Shown: positions 30,098 to 32,898, counted from the stretch's first letter. The stretch: 64,000 bases of DNA from Zootoca vivipara (GCF_963506605.1 NC_083288.1:42532001-42596000); one strand, 5' to 3'. The notes: generated by a model from the sequence alone, not told the origin. Numbers and translations: made by a program.

Positions 30098-31027
30098 CTC
30101 GGGATGGGGAGATGCAGAAGAGGTTCTTATCGACAGGTGTTAGCAAATACAGGTTAATGGAACCTCCAGGTCCAGAGGCAATATATCACGAAATGTGAGT
30201 TGCTGTTGCTGGTAGAGAGGGAAAAGGAAATGAGAAAGACATGTTTAGTTATACAAAGCAATGAAGTGGCCCTTAACTCAGGGCTGGGTCCTGCTGTGTT
30301 AAAAAATATGTAACATTCTGTGCCAAACTGCATCAATAACACCTGTTGAGAACATCTTATGTTGCATTATTTTCCACCCCCTTAAAAAGCAACAATGATA
30401 TAGCATAATTTATTCTGATTTAGCTCTAAGGTGCTGTGCAGAGCCCAGTGAAATGTCATTTGATTACCCACCTGAGATCTTGGATTTCTTCTGCCCGTGT
30501 GCTTTCTCAAGGAAATCTTTGCAAACACACAGTTACACTTATATGTAAAGCTGAAATTCTCAGGAAGCTAGATTCTGCACCTGAGCCCATCGTGTAAGGC
30601 ACCCTAACCTTACGGCAGATTCAAGCGTGAGATCATTAACCTACATCATTCAACAAGTTCCTACTGAATACTTGTGGAGCCCTTTGATTATGAGAAGTGG
30701 GGCTGTTGTTCAAATCTCAAATCCAGATAGGTGTGCTTTGTTGTATCTGCAAACACTGTGCCATGACAGATGTTTTAATTTCATTTTCCTTTGGAAGTCA
30801 GCCATGCTTTTTTTCCTAGGGCATTTCCCTGGTTTACGTAACTTTAGTATGCATTAGTGCCTAGGGCCTCGTTTCCCAGAGTTTTGGCTTGTTAGCAGCA
30901 CCTGACTGGACAATGTTATATGCATATACTGTTATATGTTCCCCTGCCTAGATTCATAATGCTGTTGTGGCAATTTGAGTTGAAAACACTGAGTACGCCA
31001 GCAATTATCTAAAAACCTCAACAAGAT

Positions 31028-31162
31028 AGGTCAGTTGGTACAGCATGGGACTCTTAAGGGTCGTGGGTTCGAGCCACAGATTGGGCAAGAAGATTCCTGC
31101 ATTGCAGAGGGTTGGACTAAATGGCCTGTGGTCGTTTTCCAATTCTACAATTCTATAATTTC
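31028..31162 (+). mobile_element. tRNA-headed SINE with CR1-like 3' tail
   Basis: GTCAGTTGGT...GGGTTCGAGCC head followed by GGGTTGGACT...TTCCAATTCTACAATTCTA CR1-type end. Confidence 0.6.
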
Positions 31163-32351
31163 ATAAGCAATTAGTGTGTGCAAGCTGAATACTAGGAAAG
31201 GTCGCAGCTCAGAGGCAGAACATCTGCTTTGCATGCAGAAGATCCCATGTTGAACCCCTGGTTTGTGTGTGTGCTGCCAGTCAGTGTAAACAATACTGAG
31301 CTAGGCAGACAAACGGTCAGACTCGGAATTAGGAAGTTCCTTGAGATTGCACTTTTAAGAGGCACAAAACCAAGGATCAAGGAGTGTGGTTTGCAATTCA
31401 GGCTTCTTAGGATTATTCTCAGCTATGGAAGACCAATGACCATTGGATGTTTACTGGCACCAAGAGTCTTATTAATTAACCAGATCTGGCAAGAAGCAGA
31501 AACACAACAGGATCTGGCAAGAAGCAGAAACACAACAGGAGAAGCTCTCCGGTGTTGTAGGAGGTAGATAGCATCATTGCTGTAATCCTCCTCCTCCTGC
31601 TGCCTCTCTCCACATTGCAAAGAAGCTGTGCCGGAATATTAAGAAAAAGTGGCAATCTTAAGAGAGTGTGTGCCATGGTTTCTTGAGCTGCAGAAGGCCA
31701 GGACACCCCCAGTTCCAGAATCATGTGGCATTTCTGCGCAGGCCATAGGAACGGTGCATGAGGGATTCTATTCCTGCAGGGTCACTCCTTGTGGGCGGAA
31801 CTGGGCCAGGAAGGAAACCAGGACTCCTGGGCTTCTGTCACAAGGGCTAATTCCCAAGCCCAAGGCACAGAGCCTTTATTTTCTAAGCATTCGAAGAGCA
31901 CACTGAAACGCAAGCTGTGAGCACAAACAGAGCGCTTCGCCCATCACAACAAGTTAACAATAATCACAGCCCTTCTTCCACTTCCCAATGCAAAATTAGT
32001 GTAGCGGAGCTTCTCCCCTCTAAAACCCCATTCCAGTCATTCTACTGGGAGGGAGGGGACGGGGAAGGAAACTAACATGCTTTCAGGAGTGATCTAATAA
32101 TTTTTAGAAGCTACCTGAAACTCCCCCCTCCTTTTTACAATCAAGCCGTGTATAGCTTTCATGAAAACAAACAAACAAACAAGCAAGCAAATGACATCAC
32201 CCCCCTCTCCTTCTCTCCCCCCCCCCCAGACTAATTTTCAAAAATTGAAGGATTCGGCCTCTCTAACTGACGGTTGTTAGCACCGCCGCCACCATGAAAC
32301 CCCTAAAACTTCTCACACACCCCTGGGGCACCCCGCTGCGTGGTGGAGTGC

Positions 32352-32412
<61 letters not shown>
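32352..32412. repeat. (AAC)n microsatellite
   Basis: About 20 tandem AAC units. Confidence 0.98.
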
Positions 32413-32413
<1 letters not shown>

Positions 32414-32898
32414 GCATGCGAGGAAGCCTGCAAGCGAGTGACAACAAGCAGCAGAGGTCGGTTGGAGCGAGGGTGGGGAACATGCAAATGCAGCTGCAGA
32501 AAATCCTCACCTGGTTTGCAGGCTCTCGCGCCAATTTCACCAGGGCGCAGAGACTTCCCGGACCGCAGGCGCTGACAGCCGGGTCACGGCAGCTTCCCGG
32601 AAGAGGCTGGCGGAGAAGGCCGGGCTCCCCGGCTCCTCCCTCCCGAGGGGGAGGAGACCCAAAACCAAAGAAAAGGAAAGTTTGCGGAGAGCGGAGCTGC
32701 GGGCAGGGAGTTGGGTTCTCTGTGCTTCTGCATCGCTTTTTGGGCATAGGGCAGGCGCAAAGGACGGACTCTATCCCGACAGCTTCCATCCCAGGAGGAG
32801 GAGATCTAGGGTGAGATCAGCAGATCTCCGCCTAGATCTGCTCCCGCTTCAGGATCTGGGCGTGAAGCGAAGCCGCTGAGCTGTTCGCGTCTGGCGCA

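What the first reader, a model, noticed from the sequence alone, without database searches (positions are those of the whole stretch)
30209..32700. Gene A appears to be spliced from a CpG-island promoter carrying a consensus GAS and ISRE: predicted interferon-stimulated gene
Seen: minus-strand donor CAG|GTGAGG at 32511/32510; strong acceptor (TTTCTCATTTCCTTTTCCCTCTCTACCAG) at 30210-30209 with no ATG before the 30097 start. Within about 170 bp of the donor lie TTCCCGGAA (32594-32602), a one-mismatch copy TTCCCGGAC near 32555 and GAAAAGGAAAGT (32670-32681). Established: TTCCCGGAA is the optimal STAT1/STAT3 GAS and GAAANNGAAA(C/G)T is the ISRE/IRF-E consensus; the pair is typical of interferon-inducible promoters. 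Inference: the putative pore-former is an inducible innate effector.
Basis: partly seen in the sequence, partly recalled or inferred. Interest (0 to 1): 0.7.

Follow-up and report, generated by a model that had tools for sequence, protein, structure and literature searches.

The report
Spliced reptile gene, interferon-type promoter
A lizard gene of an unnamed family with a pore-forming-like fold is really spliced from a promoter that carries interferon-type switch sequences at its start, but whether interferon turns it on is untested, and its protein looks as if it may have lost the ability to form pores.

Summary
All motifs are at the stated coordinates. The predicted intron is real: contigs from two studies join 32511 to 30208 and stop at 32597 and 32594, on the GAS itself. 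So the GAS sits at the apparent start, and the ISRE-like 12-mer about 75 bp upstream. The pair is rare locally (0 of 5000 shuffles; 1 of 213 window tiles). A skink gene model reads F-Q-E where the window has TTC CGG GAA, compatible with a conserved GAS (1 of 300 shuffles).

Induction is untested. The gene is expressed at roughly 4 reads/kb/million in two raw runs of unknown treatment. The ISRE lacks the ISGF3-type ...GAAACT end, its 10-mer recurs twice elsewhere, and the skink model cannot encode one. The start codon is 30091; all four runs read ACG at 30097.

The protein is a hemopexin-like propeller plus a CEL-III/aerolysin-like domain. In this reptile orthogroup the insertion hairpin is 5 residues short and carries prolines (26 of 26, versus 7 of 81 paralogues), so 'pore-forming effector' is doubtful. 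Verdict: gene structure shown; interferon response about even odds.

The parts
32401..33250 (.). CpG island holding the gene A promoter; no TATA found in 32400-33200; GC-box-like site at 32648
   Evidence: (island and motif scan)
32670..32681 (+). ISRE/IRF-E-like element GAAAAGGAAAGT, about 75 bp upstream of the contig 5' ends; canonical core, AA 5' flank, not the ISGF3-type ...GAAACT
   Evidence: consensus forms from PMC6954429
32594..32602 (.). Perfect GAS palindrome TTCCCGGAA at the apparent transcription start; overlaps an ETS-like core CCGGAAG on +
   Evidence: skink model F-Q-E at this position; P. lilfordi model L-P-G-S unchanged across it
32555..32563 (.). One-mismatch GAS copy inside exon 1 (5' UTR), 39 bp from the first
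   Evidence: repeat D11
32511..32597 (-). Non-coding exon 1 of gene A (5' end at or a little above 32597)
   Evidence: contigs cover 32511-32597 (X1) and 32511-32594 (X5), wholly laid, no loose end
30209..32510 (-). Intron 1, 2302 nt, GT-AG; holds an (AAC)n tract near 32346-32422
   Evidence: joint 30208/32511; the P. lilfordi model P0341 uses the same junction
28838..30208 (-). Exon 2: rest of the 5' UTR, whole ORF and 3' UTR; two AATAAA at 28848-28859
   Evidence: (contig end 28838)
29078..30091 (-). Gene A ORF, 337 aa from the conserved ATG: 4-bladed hemopexin-like propeller (about residues 1-199 of the 339-aa frame) + CEL-III/aerolysin-like domain (200-339) with a shortened, proline-bearing insertion segment
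32899..32988 (.). 90-bp MITE, 24-nt terminal inverted repeats, 8-bp target duplication CTGGCGCA; an X1 contig lacks it, so probably polymorphic
   Evidence: I1, D16; joint 32890/32989 and very high repeat depth
34616..35596 (-). Gene B, tandem paralogue (38% identical), 326 aa, acceptor at 35608; expressed; its 3' end lies near 33900, upstream of the gene A island

Best explanation
Gene A is a two-exon gene transcribed leftwards from a TATA-less CpG-island promoter that starts near 32600; a short non-coding exon is spliced to one coding exon (shown). It has a low basal output (shown in four runs of unknown treatment). Inferred: the GAS at the start is a real STAT site. Phosphorylated STAT1 dimers raise output early after interferon (most likely IFN-gamma, or type I through STAT1 homodimers), and the element at about -75 is a secondary IRF1/IRF3-type site that may be lineage-specific. 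The result would be a modestly inducible, GAS-dominant composite gene, not a silent-to-high classical ISGF3 target. The product is a cytosolic-looking propeller + beta-pore-fold protein whose insertion hairpin is altered, so it more likely binds or regulates than perforates (inferred).
For: Junction and 5' ends. The only strict GAS in 64 kb lies on the independently mapped 5' ends. Pair in 0 of 5000 local shuffles; loose pair in 21 of 5000 and in 1 of 213 tiles, this one. The skink N-terminal extension aligns to 32647-32570 at 23.2 bits (1 of 300 shuffles; six control stretches 13.9-17.7), with F-Q-E on TTC CGG GAA, so the forced change hits the free central base. Human composite genes have GAS and ISRE 0-415 bp apart in either order, in promoters or 5' UTRs (PMC10287828). 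AA-flanked ISREs are more frequent in IRF3-dominant regions (PMC6954429). The neighbour is an N4BP1/KHNYN-type nuclease gene, and a family member is fused to Rel-domain and RHIM-kinase exons in one gene model.
Against: No stimulation data for any orthologue. Basal expression of about 4 reads/kb/million in 2 of 2 raw runs. The ISRE lacks the IRF9-enriched GAAANNGAAACT form; GAAAAGGAAA occurs 3 times in 64 kb, once in the intron's own pyrimidine tract; under 1% of canonical ISREs were IRF3-bound in mouse cells. No back-translation of the 95-residue skink extension holds an ISRE. The skink match is 1 pass in 14 tests, rests on protein rather than DNA, gives a GAS in only a quarter of codon choices, and shuffled extensions allow a GAS somewhere in 596 of 2000; the other 6 extensions did not align. 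F-Q-E-V also allows an ETS site.
Confidence: 0.45

Rival explanations
1. Constitutive CpG-island promoter. The GGAA cores at 32594-32602 and 32555-32563 are used by ETS-family factors, and the ISRE-like 12-mer is an incidental purine run. The gene is a steadily expressed single-copy reptile gene.
For: CCGGAAG core at 32598, GC-box-like site, no TATA. One orthologue per species, 72-96% identical across squamates. GAAAAGGAAA recurs in non-promoter purine runs, and a similar ISRE-like 12-mer lies at 56431 near an olfactory receptor ORF.
Against: Both GGAA cores are one base off the recalled ETS consensus, while the GAS is a perfect palindrome. The skink change spares the GAS-defining bases. The pair is rare locally.
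Confidence: 0.3
2. The GAS is functional but answers to STAT3 or STAT5 (IL-6-family cytokines, growth hormone, prolactin), making gene A an acute-phase or hormone-tuned gene rather than an ISG.
For: TTCCNGGAA is shared by STAT1, STAT3 and STAT5 (recalled). Only the GAS, not the ISRE, shows any sign of conservation.
Against: A canonical ISRE core 68 bp away is expected for an IFN composite and not for a STAT3/5 target. No direct data.
Confidence: 0.17
3. The main promoter lies elsewhere, upstream of gene B. The 32511-32606 segment is an internal exon (candidate acceptor ending at 32607) or a minor start, so the island motifs control little of the output.
For: Pogona isoforms X1 (gene A) and X2 (gene B) of one locus share an identical 42-residue N-terminus, implying a common upstream exon. 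A P. lilfordi model splices gene B into this region and on to the gene A acceptor. A YAG with a modest pyrimidine tract ends at 32607. Contigs cannot prove a start, and the stretch laid ended at 36900.
Against: Both contigs run unbroken through the junction and end 9-12 nt short of that acceptor, wholly laid with no loose end. Bin depth in 32536-32809 is fully explained by the listed contigs, so 32598-32699 is uncovered. The Pogona segment had no convincing match in the window.
Confidence: 0.08

Closest known systems
Human GAS+ISRE composite ISGs (APOL6, PARP14, UBE2L6, TRIM69; PMC10287828, passages read)
   Same: GAS and ISRE close together in the proximal promoter or 5' UTR; 68-bp gap is inside the reported 0-415 bp range; IRF1 can bind such genes basally.
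   Different: There binding and induction were measured; here neither. Here the GAS overlaps the start and the ISRE is not the ISGF3-type form.
CEL-III, sea-cucumber haemolytic lectin (1vcl)
   Same: Best fold match of the C-terminal domain (Z 7.3, rmsd 3.0, 106 aligned); helical insertion region in the soluble form (PMC10377782, passages; helix 250-263 in the model).
   Different: N-terminal module is a 4-bladed propeller, not two beta-trefoils; 10% identity; gene A's insertion segment is short and carries prolines; Z under 8 is middling on its own.
Vertebrate aerolysin-family proteins (Dln1, natterins, lamprey LIP, BmALP1/BmALP3, Xenopus tachylectin-2 + aerolysin)
   Same: Binding module + beta-pore domain; 23 of the top 24 rows are recognisably pore-forming proteins or their complexes by title; ESM feature neighbours of a canonical member include aerolysin/ETX clusters at 0.78-0.80, a lead only. 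BmALP3 is a precedent for a non-pore-forming paralogue that regulates a pore-forming one (PMC7995273, passages).
   Different: No Pfam aerolysin/ETX hit for gene A; weak hits in 1 and 2 of 107 members; no tachylectin hit listed. A hemopexin-like propeller fusion was not found in the papers searched.
Hemopexin-like domains (chickpea albumin 3s18, MMP-2, hemopexin, vitronectin)
   Same: Residues 1-199 match at Z 9.3-10.9, rmsd 3.4-4.4, 152-174 aligned, well above the next fold at Z 7.9.
   Different: 7-13% identity; ligand unknown; no sequence hit in Pfam or PDB.

Membership tests
GAS+ISRE composite interferon-stimulated gene | GAS consensus TTCN3GAA in the proximal promoter or 5' UTR (consensus recalled) | tested here: met
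GAS+ISRE composite interferon-stimulated gene | Canonical ISRE core GAAANNGAAA within about 415 bp of the GAS | tested here: met
   definitions
GAS+ISRE composite interferon-stimulated gene | ISGF3/IRF9-type ISRE GAAANNGAAACT | tested here: not met
   site ends in GT; form from PMC6954429 section 19. Not required of all ISREs.
GAS+ISRE composite interferon-stimulated gene | Elements lie at the true transcription start | tested here: met
   contig 5' ends 32597 and 32594; contigs only, no cap data
GAS+ISRE composite interferon-stimulated gene | Conservation of both elements in other squamates | tested here: inconclusive
   protein-level only: GAS-compatible in skink and P. lilfordi models; ISRE not encodable in the skink extension; no orthologous DNA reachable
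GAS+ISRE composite interferon-stimulated gene | mRNA induced by interferon; STAT/IRF occupancy | not testable with these tools
   run treatments unknown; no orthologue could be traced in python or crocodile stimulation supplements
Aerolysin-type beta-pore-forming proteins | [quoted passage not shown] | tested here: met
   (best Z 7.3; no Foldseek hit at E<=0.001 for the domain alone)
Aerolysin-type beta-pore-forming proteins | Insertion loop with alternating polar/non-polar pattern able to form a transmembrane hairpin (PMC3110756) | tested here: inconclusive
   paralogues 44 residues, Pro in 7 of 81; gene A clade 39 residues, Pro in 26 of 26; second-strand beta moment median 1.78 vs 2.27, first-strand medians alike (1.64 vs 1.61). 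Altered, not shown inactive.
Aerolysin-type beta-pore-forming proteins | Oligomerises and permeabilises membranes | not testable with these tools
   needs a bench assay
Hemopexin-like 4-bladed propeller | Four-bladed propeller fold | tested here: met
Fish Gig1/Gig2 ISG families | Sequence relationship to Gig proteins | tested here: inconclusive
   no Gig name among listed homologues and no such Pfam hit; no direct comparison with a Gig1 sequence; the gig preprint has no mention of aerolysin, propeller or pore

The most novel reading that the evidence does not exclude
Gene A is an interferon-induced, non-lytic member of an undescribed vertebrate family (hemopexin-like propeller + CEL-III-like pore domain). 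It has been kept as one copy from turtles and crocodilians to lizards and snakes beside KHNYN. It is switched on through a GAS conserved at its start to restrain or redirect its pore-competent paralogues, or to act as a cytosolic ligand binder: an interferon-controlled brake on a reptile pore-forming system.
Probability: 0.2. Interest if true: 0.75.

Novelty: new variant of a known kind. Interest (0 to 1): 0.5.

Why it matters
Reptile ISG lists are built mostly from mammalian gene names, and about 10% of poly(I:C)/dsDNA-responsive crocodile transcripts were uncharacterised (PMC5702629, passages). This gives one such gene a verified structure, a fold and a sharp test on public data. The family (377 proteins at E<=0.001, from fish to reptiles, none with a functional name among those listed) is a propeller + pore-fold architecture not found in the papers searched. 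The promoter grammar itself is a known kind.

Tried and rejected
No genome is held for this window, and the cluster-member look-up could not be made, so no orthologous promoter DNA and no zebrafish, python or crocodile gene ids were obtained. One search listed no holder on record as RNA.

Scans: metagenomes with the gene A clade alignment found nothing; with the family alignment, 3 loci of 28-38% identity, not orthologues and not examined further; viral contigs, none. Pfam and PDB sequence searches were blank for gene A; the ESM Atlas gave no usable hit. Earlier scan notes: nothing in 3 look-ups.

Papers: 12 LOC ids or prefixes gave 0 papers; aerolysin+hemopexin gave 1 unrelated paper by its listing; searches listed nothing describing this family. 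Python organoid paper PMC13562644: BRAKER numbers next to KHNYN are unrelated genes, the annotation file is cut, no expression table in the supplements searched, one PDF too large. Crocodile paper PMC5702629: 6 neighbour gene names had 0 hits in its supplement. Zebrafish ISG preprint 10.1101/693333: no aerolysin, pore or hemopexin in the main text; its supplements are closed and may bear on the family.

Rejected: Gig1 identity (a recalled hunch, unsupported). By-eye matches of turtle, gecko and Pogona extensions to the promoter or UTR were not significant (46-199 of 300 shuffles), nor was the skink match at the exon 1 donor end (482 of 2000). The careful tree did not finish; the quick tree is quoted. 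No complex prediction was run. Rfam gave only a tRNA-like match at 36166-36225.

Full report
1. OBSERVATION. The spliced leader has no ATG. A CpG island spans 32401-33250. Window-wide, each motif alone is within chance (34 of 100 and 13 of 100 shuffles). Locally the pair is not: in 32500-32800 both occur in 0 of 5000 dinucleotide shuffles, the loose pair in 21 of 5000, and only 1 of 213 300-bp tiles holds the loose pair. Over 32100-33100 the loose pair rises to 242 of 5000. The patterns were chosen after seeing the site, so these are not clean p-values.

2. GENE STRUCTURE (shown). I laid 4 of the 21 listed runs on 28700-36900. Contigs of X1 and X5, from two studies and guessed to be RNA, skip exactly 30209-32510 (ends CT..AC). 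They are laid whole and end at 32597 and 32594, on the GAS. Their depth accounts for the whole bin, so 32598-32699 is uncovered. X1 ends at 28838, just past two AATAAA. Raw-read runs X19 and X20 (about 6% of each read) gave no junction row and no exon 1 depth. They cover the coding exon at about 4 reads/kb/million, with 85-88% of first mates on +, which fits minus-strand RNA. A P. lilfordi gene model uses the same junction. All four runs turn the 30097 ATG into ACG; the ATG at 30091 is the conserved start. Contigs cannot prove a start; ends 3 nt apart in two studies, inside an island and off any splice site, make one likely at about 32597-32630 (inference).

3. THE ELEMENTS. The GAS is a perfect palindrome (consensus recalled) at the start. 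It overlaps an ETS-like core. The upstream element has the canonical core GAAANNGAAA and an AA 5' flank, a form more frequent in IRF3-dominant regions, but not the GAAANNGAAACT form enriched under IRF9 (PMC6954429, sections 19-20 read). The same paper found under 1% of canonical ISREs IRF3-bound, against about 35% of pre-accessible regions. GAAAAGGAAA also occurs at 7696 and in the intron's own pyrimidine tract at 30221. Human composite ISGs carry GAS and ISRE 0-415 bp apart in either order (PMC10287828, passages), so the 68-bp gap fits.

4. CONSERVATION (indirect). No orthologous DNA was reachable. I used N-terminal extensions of gene models instead. Of 7 extensions tested against 2 targets, one passed: the skink model P0011 aligns to 32647-32570 (23.2 bits, 1 of 300 shuffles; controls 13.9-17.7; 6 of 300 at protein level). 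Its F-Q-E falls on TTC CGG GAA, so the forced change is the central base, which a GAS leaves free. This is modest evidence: 14 tests, a GAS in 25% of codon choices, shuffled extensions allowing a GAS somewhere in 596 of 2000, and an ETS site equally allowed. No codon choice for those 95 residues gives an ISRE, assuming the model is contiguous there. The P. lilfordi model keeps L-P-G-S across the GAS, and its acceptor falls at the edge of the ISRE-like element, which is ambiguous. In Pogona, gene A and gene B isoforms share a first segment, so a distal promoter exists in at least one lizard annotation.

5. THE PROTEIN. One search found 148 homologues and listed 120: squamate orthologues 72-96%, tuatara, turtles and alligator 57-65%, and paralogues in fish, amphibians and reptiles 33-45%. 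None has a functional name that fits, and no bird or mammal is among those listed. Alignment A1 holds the query and 106 of the 120; 14 long or partial forms were left out. The model is confident (pLDDT 93.9). Residues 1-199 are a hemopexin-like four-bladed propeller (Z up to 10.9). Residues 200-339, folded alone, match CEL-III (Z 7.3, rmsd 3.0, 106 aligned), monalysin (5.7) and a run of aerolysin-type proteins; the agreement of the list, not one Z, carries this. No signal peptide is apparent (crude hydropathy). A quick tree of 48 chosen rows puts gene A in a reptile orthogroup (SH-aLRT 100), sister to gene B. Canonical paralogues keep a 44-residue Ser/Thr-rich alternating insertion segment, the best-kept aerolysin feature (PMC3110756, passages and section 7 part 1). 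The gene A clade has 39 residues, at least one proline in 26 of 26 rows against 7 of 81, and Pro265 in 25 of 26 against 1 of 81. First-strand amphipathy did not differ, so the loss of pore formation is inferred, not shown. BmALP3 is a precedent for a non-pore-forming regulatory paralogue (PMC7995273, passages).

6. MECHANISM AND RIVALS. Best reading (0.45): a basal CpG-island promoter boosted by interferon through STAT1 at the GAS, with an IRF site as helper. Rivals: constitutive ETS-driven promoter with incidental motifs (0.30); STAT3/5 cytokine or hormone input (0.17); main promoter elsewhere (0.08). Shown: splicing, strand, approximate start, basal expression, motif presence, fold. Inferred: factor binding, induction, conservation, protein role.

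7. LITERATURE. Ten searches listed no paper on this gene or architecture; the library lacks most subscription papers. The Xenopus tachylectin-2 + aerolysin proteins of PMC3110756 are probably another family, as no tachylectin hit was listed for 107 members; I did not compare sequences. Python organoid (PMC13562644: abstract, passages, section 9, supplement searches, source-data file) and crocodile (PMC5702629: passages, supplement search) studies hold the right experiments, but the orthologue could not be traced. CEL-III details come from passages of PMC10377782. The GEO table and the bioRxiv supplements (10.1101/693333 and 10.1101/2025.07.01.662619, passages only) were not visible and may settle the question.

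8. VERDICT. The ISG call stays a fair hypothesis at about even odds, resting more on the GAS than on the ISRE. The promoter type is known; the more unusual object is the protein family and this hairpin-altered reptile branch. Novelty: new variant of a known kind. Interest 0.5; 0.75 if the interferon-induced regulator reading (probability 0.2) holds.

Noticed in passing
window 30095-30097: All 4 runs read G at 30096 (+), so the first ATG is ACG there; the window allele or an assembly error adds two codons to a 337-aa protein.
   Followed up: yes
window 32899-32988: 90-bp MITE with 24-nt terminal repeats and an 8-bp target duplication (hAT-like, label recalled), 300 bp upstream of the start; an X1 contig shows the empty site.
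   Followed up: partly
window 34616-37666 (gene B): Paralogue with its own upstream exons near 37475-37666 by match to Podarcis models; its insertion segment also carries prolines. The long ORF from 35773 is not the real start. A/B pairs carry adjacent ids in Rhineura, Hemicordylus and Lerista.
   Followed up: partly
P0006 / P0353 (Pogona LOC110091392): Gene A and gene B isoforms share a 42-residue first segment: one upstream exon spliced to either coding exon.
   Followed up: partly
window 32670-32673, P0341: A P. lilfordi chimeric B-to-A model needs an acceptor AG where the window has the edge of the ISRE-like element, so that element may differ there; an insertion next to an intact element fits too. 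DNA not seen.
   Followed up: partly
window 32700-33449: Low-depth (3.6-3.7) X1 contigs upstream of the start, strand unknown: divergent RNA, gene B read-through or DNA. No raw-read depth in 33084-33905.
   Followed up: no
window 16175-25348 (+); island 9001-10050; 7665-7705: N4BP1/KHNYN-type gene tail to tail with gene A; ISRE-like AGTTTCCTTTC near 7670 and GAAAAGGAAA at 7696, about 1.3 kb before the CpG island.
   Followed up: partly
P0163: Gene model fusing Rel-domain (NFATC4-like), RHIM kinase (RIPK3-like) and a family member; suggests the family sits in the cluster that is 14q12 in human (gene names and band recalled).
   Followed up: partly
window about 38600-39230: By eye, a solo LTR-like stretch on + (TG...CA ends, TATA-like and AATAAA); not tested.
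   Followed up: no
window 39966-40778 (-); 50085-51164 and 57419-58363 (+): Intronless arylamine N-acetyltransferase (Pfam PF00797) and two olfactory-receptor-like ORFs (by eye); an ISRE-like 12-mer at 56431-56442.
   Followed up: no
P0219, P0261; L001-L003: Distant, unnamed relatives, two of them bacterial-looking with signal peptides, share the propeller repeats (E 7e-32 and 1e-17).
   Followed up: no
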